14,796 bases of DNA from Promethearchaeota archaeon (GCA_048939765.1 JBHLPF010000055.1:1-14796); one strand, 5' to 3'. Counted from the first letter of the stretch, positions 5,839-9,866 are shown. Program-made: numbers and translations. The notes: generated by a model not told the origin, from the letters alone.

Positions 5839-7113
5839 GTGTCTGAACAAGTCAAGGTCTTTCGGTATCGGTGGGCGGTGTTGCTTGTGTTCGGTCTGAT
5901 CTTTATGATCGGACAGATGATGTGGCTGGTATTCTCCCTAATCCGGAACGAGGTCACGCCTGTGCTTGGACTGCCTGCAGGGGACCCGGGCGTCGTGCTC
6001 CTCACTGCCTCGCAGCCCCTGGCCTTCATAATTCTCTCAATCCCAGTGGGACTGCTTGCTGACAGAAAGGGGCTGGTAATTGTTGCTGGCCTTGGTTCAA
6101 TAATTCAGGCTCTGTTTGGCACACTCAGGATATTCATCATCAATGACTTCACCATGATATTCATTGCCCAATTTGGACTATCAGTAGGATCCGTCATGAT
6201 TCAGAACTGCATTGTGTACTTGAGCGTCAGCTGGTTTCCAAAGGGTGAACGAGGACTAGCAACCGGAATAAGCACTCTCTTTATGCTTCTTGGAATGCTC
6301 TTGGGTACTGCACTGAGCATGATTCTCTGGAACGCTCCTCTGTATGGCGACCCTGGTTATACGGTGGCTCTCGCACAGGCGAACCTGGTCTGGATACTGC
6401 AGATTGATGCGGCATTGGCCATAATACTCACAGTGGTCTTTTTTGCCGTCGCAAGAGACAAGCCTCCACAACCTCCAGACATAGACGTTCTGGCAGAGGC
6501 GACTCCAAGTGTCAGGGCGATGCTCAGGGACAGAAACGTATGGATTGTTGCATTCGGTTTCTTCGGGGGCTTCGGCATATTCATCGGTCTGACAGCCATC
6601 GTCGAGGAGCTTCTCCTGAGCCTTGGAATTCCAGTCGCTGCAGGTCTCGGAAGCCCAGCAATAGTCATGATACTCCTTCTGACGTTTGGAATAATTGGCG
6701 CTGTGGTTGTGCCTGGAATATCGGACAAGGTTCAGAGGAGGAAACCATTCCTCATAGTCGCAATGGTGGTCGGTACCATTGCAACCCTCATTCTGGGGAC
6801 AAGCACGATGCTTGAGCTCACTTACGTCTCATCCGCGATTCTAGGATTCTTCCTAATTGCAGTGATGCCCATAGCTCTCTCCGTGGTGGAAGAGTTTGAA
6901 ACCGTGGGGCCAGAGCTGTCAGGTGCGAGCACAGGGCTAGCATTCTGGTTTGGCAATCTAGGTGGCTTCCTCGGATCAATTCTTCTTGAGGTATTCAGGG
7001 TGGGAACATCATACTTCTATTCAGTGCTCTATCTAGTCATAGTAATGGGCATAGCGACTCTGTTGATCCTTACAATTCCCGAAACAGGAGGAGGGCACAG
7101 AGAACACCCATAG
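5839..7113 (+). CDS. MFS transporter (12 TM, FLVCR/SLC49-like N-terminus)
   Basis: Motif A 'GLLADRKG' and its repeat 'GISDKVQRRK', 'WFPKGERGLATG', and N-terminal KVFRYRWAVL. Start moved to GTG 5839, which follows GAGGT. Confidence 0.92.
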   Translation: MSEQVKVFRYRWAVLLVFGLIFMIGQMMWLVFSLIRNEVTPVLGLPAGDPGVVLLTASQPLAFIILSIPVGLLADRKGLVIVAGLGSIIQALFGTLRIFIINDFTMIFIAQFGLSVGSVMIQNCIVYLSVSWFPKGERGLATGISTLFMLLGMLLGTALSMILWNAPLYGDPGYTVALAQANLVWILQIDAALAIILTVVFFAVARDKPPQPPDIDVLAEATPSVRAMLRDRNVWIVAFGFFGGFGIFIGLTAIVEELLLSLGIPVAAGLGSPAIVMILLLTFGIIGAVVVPGISDKVQRRKPFLIVAMVVGTIATLILGTSTMLELTYVSSAILGFFLIAVMPIALSVVEEFETVGPELSGASTGLAFWFGNLGGFLGSILLEVFRVGTSYFYSVLYLVIVMGIATLLILTIPETGGGHREHP

Positions 7114-7607: not shown

Positions 7608-7763
7608 CGAAGGATTCAGCTGGAGCGTATCCACCACTTCATGGTTAAATGTCACAGTCAACGCTTGAAGCATAACGGACTGATTATATGCCTGAACGAT
7701 TCATTTGGGACTGCGGTCATTCCCAGGACTGCCAGTCTAGAAGAAGAACTGAAGGGACTTCCA

Positions 7764-8237
7764 ATGTCTGATAAGAGGGAAATGCTGCGACATTTCATCG
7801 CATCCATTGCATACCATGCAACAAAGGCAATACAAGACGCACCATCTGGATATCCGGAATTCAATTCGGGTCAGGAGGCAAGGACGCCAAGACAGATCCT
7901 GCATCATATGACAGGCGTGCTCTCATATGCACATAGCTTCTTCGAAGAGTATGACACGACCTACTTCGAACACAAGTCATGGGATGCTGAGAAGGCACAC
8001 TTCTATGAGACCCTCTCGAGGCTGGATACATCACTCAAAGAGAAGGGCCCTAGAGATATGTCTGAGGAGCAACTGCTTCAAGGTCCGCTGTCAGACACTA
8101 TGGCGCATATAGGCCAGCTGCTAATGTTGAGAAGACTTGTTGGTTCTCCTGTACCCTCTGAGAACTTTATCTTCGCAGACATTCGCAAGGGAGCCGTAGG
8201 TTCAGACCAACCTCCACCTGTAGCACCCGACGAATGA
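7764..8237 (+). CDS. DinB/YfiT-like four-helix-bundle protein
   Basis: RTPRQILHHM ... DTMAHIGQLLMLRRLVG, the His pattern of the DinB superfamily. Start moved to ATG 7764. Confidence 0.8.
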   Translation: MSDKREMLRHFIASIAYHATKAIQDAPSGYPEFNSGQEARTPRQILHHMTGVLSYAHSFFEEYDTTYFEHKSWDAEKAHFYETLSRLDTSLKEKGPRDMSEEQLLQGPLSDTMAHIGQLLMLRRLVGSPVPSENFIFADIRKGAVGSDQPPPVAPDE

Positions 8238-8392
8238 TAAAACCAATCAGTGATGCTGCATCATTTGATATAAAGCAAGAAGGCCATAGAATTCTTGGGA
8301 TGCGATCCATTCACCTTCACAGATATCACAGTGATGCTTGTGGCCCATGTTTTGTTCCATCTTCTGTTTGGTGTATTCTTTCTTTGAACAAG

Positions 8393-8740
8393 CTATCCAG
8401 TTTTCGATGCCTTCAAAAAATAGTACACCAGCGAAATTATGAAGAGGAAAAGACCTCCGAGGTGAATCACAGTAATCGTCCACCACTCAATCGCCACGGC
8501 TTCGGGTGGGGCCCCCCAGTTACCCGAGAACAAATCCCTAAGGTAATAGAAGAACTGTATGTATATGGGCTGGTCAAGTCCATGTTGAGCAATGATCCCG
8601 GGAATTGCAGATGGAGGCGTTGTTTCATCGATGAACATTGTAATAGGATTTCCAACAACATAAGCCAGATTGAACGTCGCAAGTAGTCCGCCTATGAATA
8701 GGACTATGCCAACTATGGCTAATTTTCCTGAGATATGCAA
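8393..8740 (-). CDS. Small 2-TM protein consisting of a DppB/OppB-type permease N-terminal domain only
   Basis: GNPI...HGLDQPIYIQFFYYLRDLFSGNWG matches the GDP...GLDxP..QY..YL..LL.GDLG signature. The TTG start follows GAGGGAG. No EAA-motif core. Confidence 0.7.
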   Translation of the reverse strand: MHISGKLAIVGIVLFIGGLLATFNLAYVVGNPITMFIDETTPPSAIPGIIAQHGLDQPIYIQFFYYLRDLFSGNWGAPPEAVAIEWWTITVIHLGGLFLFIISLVYYFLKASKTG

Positions 8741-8824: not shown

Positions 8825-8868
8825 CAAGAAAAGTAAATGTAACAATGCGGTTGGCATAAAGCAAGAAA
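8825..8868 (-). terminator. U-rich archaeal-type terminator region after the candidate ncRNA
   Basis: UUUCUUGCUUU begins at the last base of the closing helix, and UUUACUUUUCUUG follows further downstream. Confidence 0.5.
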
Positions 8869-9093
8869 GCCGTCTGAGCCAAAGCCTCGATAGTGGTTCA
8901 ATTGCTCTCGTCCGGGAACACTTTCTTTGTCGTGACTTATACCATCGAACGGGCAGATCATCACTCAATGTCACCGTTCATCATTCTGCCCTATGTGTCG
9001 TCTTAGTCGCTCGGCCAACTTCCGAATGTGTTTATGGCTCTGCTCGACACATCAAGCCCAGACGCCTATCGTGAGCGTACTCCTCAGACGGCC
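8868..9093 (-). ncRNA. Candidate ~226-nt structured non-coding RNA of unknown family
   Basis: Closing helix GGCCGUCUGAG/CUCAGACGGCU, four internal stem-loops whose G.U pairs favour the minus strand, a TATA box 30 nt upstream and a U-rich tail. No convincing ORF. Confidence 0.75.
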
Positions 9094-9116: not shown

Positions 9117-9133
9117 TATTAAAGATTTCTTCG
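9117..9133 (-). promoter_or_regulatory. BRE/TATA promoter for the candidate ncRNA
   Basis: Minus strand reads CGAAGAAATC-TTTAATA. The first T (9123) is 30 nt upstream of the G at 9093 that opens the terminal helix, which is standard archaeal spacing. Confidence 0.65.
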
Positions 9134-9140
9134 CAAGTCT

Positions 9141-9866
9141 TTAGCGGTGCAGCAACCCCTGAGCGCGTAAAATCGTATCGAGGTATTCATTTGGAGGAAC
9201 CTGAGTCACATCGGCGGCGTCTATATCGATGATGTAGATCTTGTCAATCTCTGACAGAGCGAGAGCATCCAGCAATATTGGAGGCGATTTGTAGTACAAA
9301 TCACATTCCCGTTTTATCCGCACAAGCTCCTCCTTATCTCGAAGTCCTGGAGGTCTCAATAGAATACTTGGGATCTGCAATACATGATAGTTTGGGGTCG
9401 CCAGACCGAAAGAGTGGCTGTATCTGCAATAGCGAGCAATCTTTGCAGCAATCCTGGTCTGTCGGTATCTTGTTGGATAGAGCGCAGCCTTGGGCGGGAC
9501 ATAGCCGGTCTCTATCTCCACGACCATCGCCTCCTTTCTCTCAGAAAGCCCAAGGCGCTCGGATATCAAGACGTTCTCAATATCCCGTTCCAACTCAAGG
9601 CCTCTATCACGTACAGCAAAGAGGTCTGCAACGAGTTGACCTCCTACAAGCGGATGCTCACTATCGACCTCATAGCCTTGCTCGATGAGGTGTTTTGCAC
9701 AGATTAACTGCATCACGCTGTGGTTGATCTTGATGAGCCGTTTTCGGTTTAGCTCAACTAGACGATTACGAATCTCTGTTAGCTGGCGCATAGTCTCTTC
9801 GTCTGATGTTGACTCAAACTGTTCCATCAGCGTATCCAAGTCGCGAGAGAACTTGTTCTTGGCCAA
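9141..9866 (-). CDS. Conserved archaeal hypothetical protein with a putative PD-(D/E)XK restriction-endonuclease-like fold
   Basis: KINHSVM, GYEVDSEH, VADLFA, VVEIETGYVPP and KIARY resemble an uncharacterised TACK-type family as I recall it. The E...AD...ExE arrangement fits the nuclease fold. The TTG start follows GGTGGT. Confidence 0.8.
   Translation of the reverse strand: MAKNKFSRDLDTLMEQFESTSDEETMRQLTEIRNRLVELNRKRLIKINHSVMQLICAKHLIEQGYEVDSEHPLVGGQLVADLFAVRDRGLELERDIENVLISERLGLSERKEAMVVEIETGYVPPKAALYPTRYRQTRIAAKIARYCRYSHSFGLATPNYHVLQIPSILLRPPGLRDKEELVRIKRECDLYYKSPPILLDALALSEIDKIYIIDIDAADVTQVPPNEYLDTILRAQGLLHR

What the first reader, a model, noticed from the sequence alone, without database searches (positions are those of the whole stretch)
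8868..9093. Unannotated ~226-nt multi-branched RNA with its own promoter and terminator
The minus strand folds by eye as follows. P1 GGCCGUCUGAG(9093-9083)/CUCAGACGGCU(8878-8868) is 10 Watson-Crick pairs plus one G.U. P2 is ACGCU-CACGAUA-GGCGU (9078-9062). P3 is AUGUGUCG/CGACACAU (9052-8993) with apical UUCGG/CCGAG. P4 is GGGCAGA/UCUGCCC (8991-8951). P5 is UUCGAUGGU/ACUAUCGAG (8949-8886) with apical UGUUC/GAGCA. P3, P4 and P5 are separated by single nucleotides, as in a tight junction. The non-WC positions in these helices are G.U on the minus strand and would be A-C mismatches on the plus strand, which suggests RNA-level selection. A TTTAATA box starts 30 nt before the first G, and UUUCUUGCUUU runs from the last paired base. 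CAGAGCC (9042-9036) could pair with GGCUUUG (8886-8880) as a pseudoknot. It lacks RNase P, SRP, tRNA and 5S hallmarks, so I infer a possibly undescribed archaeal ncRNA class.
Basis: partly seen in the sequence, partly recalled or inferred. Interest (0 to 1): 0.92.

Follow-up and report, generated by a model that had tools for sequence, protein, structure and literature searches.

The report
New archaeal pseudoknotted RNA with nuclease partner
The flagged stretch is a real, conserved, roughly 235-nucleotide pseudoknotted non-coding RNA of Thorarchaeota (Asgard archaea) that matches no described RNA family, and across two archaeal phyla its gene lies beside the gene for an uncharacterised nuclease-fold protein, which suggests an undescribed RNA-protein system.

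Summary
The RNA is real. It lies on the minus strand from 9093 to about 8855. Homology to relatives begins exactly at 9093. A TATA box (9123-9117) and a U-rich tail are conserved.

Rfam 15 has no match. The genome's RNase P and SRP RNAs lie on other contigs.

A covariance model found 1-2 copies in 48 of 86 genomes of the family (Thorarchaeota). On 52 sequences my revised structure is 92% paired, against 27-40% when the partners are slid. 53 of 60 pairs show changes on both sides.

Its P2, P4, P5, apical stems and pseudoknot are not conserved. They give way to a long-range P2, helices P6-P8 and two different pseudoknots.

A shorter form (about 150-180 nt) has the same core: P1 | RAGYAN | GCUU...AGGC | UUAGA | P1'. 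It occurs in Bathyarchaeia and Brockarchaeota.

In 40 of 80 loci the RNA lies within 2 kb of one protein family, here 9141-9866. That protein has no Pfam match, a PD-(D/E)xK fold and invariant acidic residues. It is the only conserved neighbour.

Best reading: a new RNA class that partners this nuclease-like protein. The mechanism is inferred. No transcript data could be obtained.

The parts
9117..9132 (-). Archaeal promoter: purine-rich BRE-like GAAGAAA (9132-9126) and TATA box TTTAATA (9123-9117), centred about 27 nt before the RNA's first base
   Evidence: Read. In 52 homologues the columns at -29..-25 are 92-98% A+T and those at -35..-33 are 60-69% A.
8855..9093 (-). The ncRNA gene, about 235-239 nt (RNA position p = window 9094 - p)
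   Evidence: blastn homology to relatives starts at 9093/9092 and ends at 8851-8858. Model R1 scores it 263 bits over 8855-9093.
9083..9093 (-). P1, 5' strand (GGCCGUCUGAG)
   Evidence: Pairs with 8868-8878. 98.6% of cells are paired and 6 of 11 pairs change on both sides.
8868..8878 (-). P1, 3' strand (CUCAGACGGCU)
9074..9082 (-). Family-defining internal loop, 5' side: GAGUAC (consensus RAGYAN) followed by GCU (consensus GCUU)
   Evidence: A, G, A, G and C are present in 32-34 of 34 short-form sequences and are conserved in type A Thor sequences.
8879..8886 (-). Family-defining internal loop, 3' side: GGC + UUUGG here, consensus AGGC + UUAGA
   Evidence: GGCUU is invariant in 34/34 sequences and AGA is present in 28-33 of 34. 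AGGCTTAGAC is exact in 27 loci.
9066..9071 (-).
   Evidence: Pairs with 8888-8893. 97% paired and all 5 scored pairs change on both sides.
8888..8893 (-). P2, 3' strand (CUAUCG)
8993..9052 (-). P3 domain: P3 (9052-9045/9000-8993), P3a (9043-9042/9010-9009) and P3b (9038-9035/9017-9014)
   Evidence: 93%, 98% and 98% paired.
9024..9028 (-). Pseudoknot 1, 5' strand (CAUUC) in the apical loop of P3
   Evidence: Pairs with 8982-8986. Paired in 52 of 52 sequences, with up to 5 pair types.
8982..8986 (-). Pseudoknot 1, 3' strand (GAAUG)
8913..8976 (-). P8 (8976-8968/8921-8913), which encloses P6 (8964-8960/8936-8932) and hairpin P7 (8955-8952/8943-8940). The conserved bulge CGACAAAGA lies at 8932-8924.
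   Evidence: P8 is 79% paired, P6 91% and P7 83%, and every pair changes on both sides. The CGAYAAAGA-type bulge is also seen in short forms.
8944..8950 (-). Pseudoknot 2, 5' strand (GUUCGAU) in the loop of P7
   Evidence: Pairs with 8896-8902. 91% paired and 7 of 7 pairs change on both sides. An equivalent 4-bp loop-tail pairing is kept in 7 of 7 small short forms (my reading).
8896..8902 (-). Pseudoknot 2, 3' strand (AUUGAAC)
8855..8867 (-). U-rich 3' tail UUCUUGCUUUAUG, the likely archaeal oligo-U terminator
   Evidence: Conserved as CUUUCYUGCKUUUUG-like in all Thor types and as U runs in short forms. Function as a terminator is inferred.
9141..9866 (-). Partner gene P0001: 241 aa, PD-(D/E)xK-fold protein with no Pfam family. 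It ends 48 nt before the RNA start.
   Evidence: It is adjacent to the RNA in 40 of 80 loci across phyla.
8271..8285 (-). Second copy of the RNA's last 15 nt (GGCCTTCTTGCTTTA), 586 nt downstream. Together with 8857-8871 it brackets most of ORF 8234-8686.
   Evidence: 0.01 matches expected by chance. Its meaning is unresolved.

Best explanation
Window 9093 to about 8855 (minus strand) encodes a stable non-coding RNA of a previously undescribed archaeal family. It is independently transcribed and has two pseudoknots.

Architecture:
- An 11-bp closing helix P1.
- A conserved purine-rich internal loop, 5'-RAGYAN / 5'-UUAGA, that could stack as tandem sheared G.A pairs.
- A long-range helix P2.
- A compact core. 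In the core the P3 apical loop pairs with the strand after P3 (pseudoknot 1). The loop of an inner hairpin pairs with the strand just before P2' (pseudoknot 2).

Most likely role: the RNA is the dedicated partner of the protein encoded next to it, a PD-(D/E)xK nuclease-fold protein of about 220-240 aa. I infer that the protein recognises the invariant P1-loop-P2 module. The folded RNA would then hold the nuclease in check, in the manner of an RNA antitoxin or inhibitor, or license or direct its activity.

Shown here: the gene boundaries, the promoter and tail conservation, the structure, the distribution, the gene linkage and the protein fold.
Inferred: physical binding, nuclease activity and the direction of control.
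For: The RNA is real and new:
- Homology starts exactly at 9093 and ends at 8851-8858.
- 48 of 86 genomes of the family carry 1-2 copies.
- 60 pairs are 92.2% paired, against 27-40% when partners are slid. 53 pairs change on both sides and 0 of 500 shuffles reach the observed values.
- Pseudoknot 1 is paired in 52 of 52 sequences.
- The promoter is conserved.
- G.U cells far outnumber A.C cells, 293 to 66.
- No Rfam family matches.

Link to the protein:
- The 241-aa gene sits 47-146 nt from the RNA in 15 Thor loci.
- Of 80 loci fetched by the protein alone, 40 hold the RNA within 2 kb.
- In Bathyarchaeia and Brockarchaeota the RNA always lies upstream of the protein gene, within about 100-460 nt, and is divergent. 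In Thor it lies either downstream on the same strand or upstream and divergent. Adjacency therefore survived rearrangement.
- In 23 short-form loci the protein is the only neighbour shared by all.
- In the Thor family the genus-level pattern is identical: 10 genera have both and 6 have neither. All 25 genomes with more than a C-terminal fragment of the protein gene also have the RNA.

The protein:
- AF2 model with pLDDT 90.
- The best structural matches are all PD-(D/E)xK proteins: XisH (Z 8.7), PaqCI, AF1548, YaeQ and the CdiA-CT tRNase toxin.
- E70, D81, E117, E119 and K142 are invariant in 20 sequences that share 41-83% identity.
Against: - No transcript evidence could be obtained, and there is no direct evidence of binding.
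- About 23 Thor genomes have the RNA but no detectable protein gene. These are mostly genus g5 and the paralogue types B-D. The RNA must therefore also work without this protein.
- Half of the protein loci show no RNA within 2 kb. In 3 of 5 such genomes model R2 found none anywhere.
- No variable segment that could serve as a guide is visible.
- PADLOC, PHROGs, NCBIfam and Pfam give no hint of function.
- Related genomes are not independent, so the co-occurrence counts overstate the support.
Confidence: 0.6

Rival explanations
1. The RNA is an autonomous functional RNA, for example a ribozyme, a ligand or protein sponge, or a regulator. Its function has nothing to do with the neighbouring protein, and the adjacency is inherited synteny or co-mobilisation.
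For: - RNA-only genomes are common, and extra RNA copies sit beside unrelated genes: cupin/ACAD, VIT1, PhoU, HypD and GNAT.
- The tight double-pseudoknot fold with invariant loops resembles ribozymes and aptamers.
Against: - The protein is the only neighbour conserved across two phyla, and it stays adjacent in two different gene orders.
- Genus-level presence and absence are identical in the Thor family.
Confidence: 0.25
2. The RNA gene mainly matters as a conserved genomic landmark, like a tRNA gene. Gene cassettes integrate at its 3' end, and the linked nuclease-fold protein (XisH-like) would serve that DNA rearrangement.
For: - The RNA's last 15 nt are duplicated 586 nt downstream and bracket an ORF.
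- Homology between genera breaks exactly at the RNA's 3' end.
- In G005 the full protein gene lies about 2 kb from the RNA, while the RNA still keeps homology to the last ~47 nt of the window's protein gene beside it.
- The best structural match, XisH, is a DNA-element excision factor.
Against: - Only one tail duplication was seen among all loci fetched, and none at the second copy.
- An attachment site would not need 60 covarying base pairs and two pseudoknots.
- This reading could hold alongside the main explanation rather than replace it.
Confidence: 0.07
3. It is a divergent member of a known RNA class, such as RNase P/MRP-like, SRP, a C/D-box or H/ACA guide RNA, or a riboswitch.
For: - Superficial resemblances only: GAGGAG...GGCUU near the ends recalls RNase P CR-I/CR-V (from memory).
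- AUGAUGA...UGAUGA in the window gives weak C/D-box hits, sR12 and sR5 at E about 4.
Against: - No Rfam hit at gathering score for 17 members.
- A canonical RNase P RNA (163 bits) and an SRP RNA are present elsewhere in the genome.
- The C/D-like boxes are not conserved even within the genus.
- No gene lies downstream on the same strand for a riboswitch to control.
Confidence: 0.03
4. It is not a functional RNA: a chance fold, a MITE, or a small protein-coding ORF.
For: - The single-sequence MFE is not better than shuffles.
- Short ORFs overlap the region.
Against: - Covariation is far above the controls.
- There are only two copies per genome, in conserved synteny.
- Indels of 1-2 nt occur between homologues.
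- There are no tandem repeats.
Confidence: 0.01

Closest known systems
Ro60/Rsr with Y RNA or YrlA (protein gene beside its structured ncRNA)
   Same: A protein gene lies next to one or more ncRNA genes. The ncRNAs have a conserved terminal stem with an internal loop, a variable interior, a U-rich tail and several paralogues per genome.
   Different: The protein here has a PD-(D/E)xK fold, not TROVE/vWA. The RNA sequence and fold are unrelated and there is no tRNA-like domain. Binding is not shown here.
Type III toxin-antitoxin systems (ToxIN, CptIN, TenpIN)
   Same: A nuclease gene is paired with a pseudoknotted RNA gene. The distribution is patchy and cuts across phyla. In the Thor family the protein is never found without the RNA, whereas the RNA is found without the protein.
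   Different: Type III antitoxins are tandem 34-36-nt repeats, upstream on the same transcript and processed by a ToxN-fold RNase. Here there is a single 150-240-nt RNA with its own promoter and no tandem repeats. The gene order differs and so does the protein fold.
OMEGA/CRISPR-type RNA-guided nucleases (TnpB/IscB with omega RNA; tracrRNA)
   Same: A compact nuclease is encoded next to a structured, pseudoknotted RNA of 150-250 nt.
   Different: No guide-like variable segment, transposon ends or repeats were seen. The nuclease fold is PD-(D/E)xK, not RuvC or HNH. The RNA persists as independent paralogues in conserved synteny.
XisH (PDB 2okf, 2inb), the closest solved structure to the partner protein
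   Same: A PD-(D/E)xK core. VIA Z 8.7, rmsd 2.7 A over 114 residues; Foldseek E 7e-3 to 1e-2.
   Different: About 15% identity. The protein here adds an N-terminal three-helix bundle and a C-terminal domain. XisH has no known RNA partner (from memory).

Membership tests
Any Rfam 15 family | Score at or above the family's gathering threshold | tested here: not met
   There were 0 matches on the window and 0 on 16 loci holding diverse family members. With permissive settings the best E-values were 3.6-6.2.
Archaeal RNase P RNA | Match to RF00373, and being the genome's RNase P RNA | tested here: not met
   The only RF00373 match in the genome is on contig C46, at 163 bits.
Archaeal SRP RNA | Match to RF01857 | tested here: not met
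   The only match is on contig C12, at 87.9 bits.
C/D-box sRNA | Conserved C (RUGAUGA) and D (CUGA) boxes that form a K-turn | tested here: not met
   The sR12 and sR5 hits are weak (12-13 bits against thresholds of 38-40). The AUGAUGA of the window reads AUGACGA, AUGGCGA or UUGGCAA in homologues.
tRNA / tmRNA | Detected by ARAGORN | tested here: not met
   0 genes in the window.
MITE or other dispersed repeat | Many dispersed copies with target-site duplications | tested here: not met
   There are two copies in the 3.37-Mb genome and 1-2 per genome in relatives, in conserved synteny.
Type III toxin-antitoxin | Antitoxin made of tandem direct repeats upstream of the toxin on one transcript | tested here: not met
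   No tandem repeats were found. The RNA has its own TATA box and lies downstream of, or divergent from, the protein gene.
Type III toxin-antitoxin | The protein is toxic and is neutralised by binding the RNA | not testable with these tools
   This needs expression and binding assays.
RNA-guided nuclease (OMEGA/CRISPR-like) | A variable guide segment next to a constant scaffold | tested here: inconclusive
   No hypervariable single-stranded segment stands out in the 52-sequence alignment, and most variation is compensatory. Targets were not searched for.
PD-(D/E)xK nuclease superfamily (partner protein) | Restriction-endonuclease-like alpha/beta core with conserved acidic residues on strands 2 and 3 | tested here: met
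   AF2 model with pLDDT 90. The top structural matches are all PD-(D/E)xK proteins. D81 and E117-x-E119 are invariant. Catalysis was not tested, and the canonical Lys of the (D/E)xK motif is replaced by Glu.

The most novel reading that the evidence does not exclude
The RNA and the PD-(D/E)xK protein form a new kind of RNA-dependent nuclease system. It would be shared by Asgard archaea (Thorarchaeota) and Thermoproteota (Bathyarchaeia, Brockarchaeota). The structured RNA would activate, target or gate a restriction-endonuclease-fold enzyme. The RNA paralogues (types A-D in Thor, 2-5 copies in some Bathyarchaeia) would give the one protein different specificities.
Probability: 0.15. Interest if true: 0.95.

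Novelty: categorically new. Interest (0 to 1): 0.8.

Why it matters
Large, conserved, pseudoknotted RNAs without a known function are rare. In the past they have led to new biochemistry, for example ribozymes, OLE, and HEARO/omega RNA.

This one is well defined: it has clear ends, 60 covarying pairs and two pseudoknots. It occurs in two archaeal phyla, including the Asgard relatives of eukaryotes. It also comes with a specific candidate protein partner of nuclease fold that itself has no family assignment.

That makes a long-standing kind of question directly testable: what do orphan structured RNAs do? Two genes can be expressed together and assayed. If the RNA controls or directs the nuclease, it would be a new principle for an RNA-protein nuclease system. 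If it does not, it is still a new RNA class for Rfam and a useful marker for annotating Thorarchaeota and Bathyarchaeia genomes.

Tried and rejected
- Thermodynamic test: the MFE z-score is -0.5 on the minus strand and -1.3 on the plus strand, which is uninformative.
- RNase P, SRP, tRNA and C/D-box identities: rejected.
- GNAT acetyltransferases recur next to RNA copies, but they are not related to each other (BLASTP E 0.12 and 1.2). I treat this as coincidence.
- Fused or longer forms of the protein: none found. This is weak evidence.
- Pfam, NCBIfam, PADLOC, PHROGs and PDB sequence searches of the protein: nothing.
- Literature searches for an Asgard, Thorarchaeota or Bathyarchaeota structured ncRNA: nothing relevant.
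- Repeats around the genome's second RNA copy: none.
- The 40 protein loci with no RNA hit: a relaxed motif search found nothing convincing. The 650-nt gap after the protein gene in L148 shows no similarity by eye.
- R2 search of 151 Asgard genomes: it found only the Thor family and one other family. R2 misses Thor-type RNAs under the strict filters, so this does not delimit the range.

Full report
**Observation.** TTTAATA lies at 9123-9117, 30 nt before the first G at 9093. GGCCGUCUGAG (9093-9083) is complementary to CUCAGACGGCU (8878-8868). A U-rich run follows. The region lies between the stop codon of a minus-strand ORF (9141) and the end of a convergent plus-strand ORF (8686). Folding the single sequence gives nothing special: -71.6 kcal/mol against -69.1 +/- 5.0 for shuffles, z = -0.5. 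No tRNA is found and no Rfam family reaches its threshold. With permissive settings only chance-level hits appear, including two C/D-box models at E about 4.

**Homologues and boundaries.** blastn against relatives found the stretch in 19 of 61 genomes at 96-69% identity. In all but the closest relatives the alignments begin at window 9093/9092 and end at 8851-8858. That is exactly the proposed RNA. A covariance model (R1) then found 1-2 copies in 48 of 86 genomes of the family. The window's own genome has two copies, the second at contig C37:6217-6450. Names attached to protein homologues identify the organism as Candidatus Thorarchaeota, an Asgard archaeon. The genome's canonical RNase P RNA (163 bits) and SRP RNA are on other contigs.

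**Promoter, tail and strand.** Upstream of 52 homologues, columns -29 to -25 are 92-98% A+T. They are preceded by a purine-rich block at -35 to -33. This is the layout of an archaeal BRE/TATA promoter, placed so that transcription would start at the first base of P1. The tail after P1 is conserved as CUUUCYUGCKUUUUG-like sequence.

**Structure.** I tested each helix on a 52-sequence alignment (A3).
- Its P2 hairpin (79%), P4 (61%), P5 (77%), the two apical stems (52-54%) and its pseudoknot (64%) do not hold.

A covariation scan and inspection gave a different model.
- P2 is a long-range helix, CGAUAG (9071-9066) with CUAUCG (8893-8888).
- The apical part of P3 is GC/GC plus GCCA/UGGC.
- The P3 loop CAUUC (9028-9024) pairs with GAAUG (8986-8982). 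This is pseudoknot 1, paired in 52 of 52 sequences with up to five pair types.
- P8 (9 bp) encloses P6 and the hairpin P7.
- The P7 loop GUUCGAU (8950-8944) pairs with AUUGAAC (8902-8896). This is pseudoknot 2.

On the whole model, 60 pairs are 92.2% paired against 27-40% when the 3' partners are slid by 1-3 columns. 53 pairs have changes on both sides (518 cells), and none of 500 shuffles reaches any observed measure. The alignment was fitted to part of this model (P1, P2, P3 and pk2). P6-P8 and pk1 were not in the model, so their support is independent of the fitting.

**A wider family.** Searching loci that encode homologues of the neighbouring protein revealed a shorter RNA (about 150-180 nt) in Bathyarchaeia, Brockarchaeota and related Thermoproteota. 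A second model (R2) collected 34 such sequences. Their outer helices covary: 93.8% paired against 22-57% slid, with 124 double-change cells. The core is nearly invariant: P1 | R-A-G-Y-A-N | G-C-U-U ... A-G-G-C | U-U-A-G-A | P1'. The same core closes the Thor RNA. The loop could stack as G.A, A.G, G.A, Y.U, A-U; this is my reading and was not tested. The smallest forms keep a helix equivalent to P8, an inner hairpin and a CGAYAAAGA bulge. They also keep a 4-bp loop-to-tail pairing in the place of pseudoknot 2, which varies as CGGC/GCUG, CAAC/GUUG, CAGC/GUUG, CGGC/GCCG and CGGC/GUCG in 7 of 7 sequences (my reading). None of 16 diverse loci gives an Rfam hit. Some Bathyarchaeia genomes carry 2-5 copies.

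**Link to a protein.** In the window, the ORF 9141-9866 (241 aa, P0001) ends 48 nt before the RNA start.
- Its homologues lie 47-146 nt from the RNA in 15 Thor loci from several genera.
- I fetched 80 loci from the species-representative genome collection using the protein alone. Forty of them hold the RNA within 2 kb. Twenty-six are short forms, always upstream of the protein gene (within about 100-460 nt) and divergent. Fourteen are Thor-type, either downstream on the same strand or upstream and divergent.
- Among 23 short-form loci, the protein is the only neighbour shared by all. Other neighbours are shared only within close relatives.
- In the Thor family, the genus-level pattern of RNA and protein is identical: ten genera have both and six have neither. 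All 25 genomes with more than a C-terminal fragment of the protein gene have the RNA. The two exceptions hold only C-terminal fragments of the gene.

The reverse does not hold. About 23 genomes have the RNA without the protein. The extra paralogues (types B-D) sit beside cupin/acyl-CoA dehydrogenase genes and other unrelated genes. Of five genomes whose protein locus lacks the RNA, two have it elsewhere and in three R2 found none.

**The protein.**
- It has no family in Pfam, NCBIfam, PADLOC or PHROGs, and no relative among PDB sequences.
- At least 1,493 homologues were found, all labelled hypothetical where a name is given, from Thor-, Hermod- and Promethearchaeota, Bathyarchaeia and Brockarchaeota.
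- The AlphaFold model is confident (pLDDT 90, pTM 0.88).
- Foldseek and VIA-align both rank PD-(D/E)xK proteins first for the core: XisH (Z 8.7, 114 residues, rmsd 2.7 A), PaqCI, AF1548, YaeQ, the CdiA-CT tRNase toxin, FokI, HindIII and Cas4. These scores are moderate, so they show the fold and not the function.
- E70, D81, E117, E119 and K142 and the motif KINHS are invariant over 20 sequences of 41-83% identity. This fits an active metal-dependent nuclease, although the canonical lysine of (D/E)xK is a glutamate here.

**Mechanism.** What is shown is a structured RNA gene and a nuclease-fold gene that travel together across phyla in otherwise unrelated contexts, in two gene orders. I infer that they form a complex through the invariant P1-loop-P2 module. 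Two directions of control are possible.
- The RNA restrains a potentially harmful nuclease, like an antitoxin. The asymmetry in the Thor family fits this: the protein is never found without the RNA, while the RNA is often found without the protein. So do the patchy cross-phylum distribution and the tRNase toxin among the structural matches.
- The RNA is a cofactor that licenses or directs the enzyme.

Against a guide role, I see no hypervariable single-stranded segment. Against a pure antitoxin role, the RNA-only paralogues keep their promoter and full structure in conserved synteny, so the RNA must do something on its own. I put 0.6 on a functional partnership of some kind, 0.25 on an autonomous RNA with only syntenic linkage, and small odds on the rest.

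**A side lead.** The last 15 nt of the RNA gene recur 586 nt downstream (8271-8285), where 0.01 matches are expected by chance. The two copies bracket most of ORF 8234-8686. Homology to other genera stops exactly at the RNA's 3' end. In G005 the full protein gene is about 2 kb from the RNA, yet the RNA keeps homology to the last ~47 nt of the window's protein gene beside it. This suggests that cassettes integrate at these gene ends, as they do at tRNA genes. Only one tail duplication was found among the fetched loci, so I record it without building on it.

**Comparison with known systems.** In logic it resembles Ro/Y RNA modules, type III toxin-antitoxin pairs and RNA-guided nucleases. It meets the defining features of none of them. 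There are no tandem repeats, no guide segment, and the protein folds differ. As far as the libraries and papers searched here show, neither the RNA nor the protein belongs to a described family.

**Limits.**
- No expression data could be obtained.
- All genomes are metagenome-assembled, so absences are soft.
- Relatives are not independent.
- E-values from the short calibration of the models are rough.
- The distribution outside the sampled genomes is unknown.

Noticed in passing
window 8271-8285 and 8857-8871 (minus strand): The RNA's 3'-terminal 15 nt (GGCYTTCTTGCTTTA) occur twice, 586 nt apart, bracketing most of the 150-aa ORF 8234-8686 (no Pfam match). By chance 0.01 matches are expected. 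This looks like an attachment-site duplication after a cassette integrated at the RNA gene's 3' end.
   Followed up: partly
G000 contig C37:6217-6450 (+), locus L053: A second, divergent paralogue of the RNA (157 bits, type B/D) lies in the same genome, next to HXXEE and GNAT-like genes. The 241-aa protein gene is not adjacent to it.
   Followed up: partly
Upstream of type B-D RNA genes, e.g. L053 about 6170-6190, also L021, L022, L069-L071: A conserved element TGTGCAG(A/C)NATCT(C/A)AGG lies just upstream of the TATA box in the B-D paralogues only. It may be a transcription-factor site that regulates these paralogues differently from type A.
   Followed up: no
L059 4993-5233 and 6603-6842 (G027): Two divergent copies of the RNA lie in tandem, 1.6 kb apart, on one contig.
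   Followed up: no
L165 6938-7110, 7116-7215 and 10043-10193 (Bathyarchaeia genome G114): Two full copies and a weak partial match (12.9 bits) of the short-form RNA lie within 3.3 kb, interleaved with PhoU/MazE-domain, aspartate carbamoyltransferase and VIT1 genes. A VIT1 gene also precedes the RNA in another genome (L168).
   Followed up: partly
G005 contig C14 (loci L003/L025) compared with window 9141-9187: In this close relative the full protein gene lies about 2 kb from the RNA, yet the RNA keeps homology to the last ~47 nt of the window's protein gene directly upstream.
   Followed up: partly
window 8952-8987 (minus strand): AUGAUGA ... UGAG ... UGAUGA gives weak C/D-box sRNA hits (E about 4). 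The boxes are not conserved in homologues, so this is a chance resemblance.
   Followed up: yes
window 7641-8237 (+) and 8234-8686 (+): Two overlapping ORFs downstream of the RNA have no Pfam family. They are shared only with the two closest genomes (G002, G005).
   Followed up: partly
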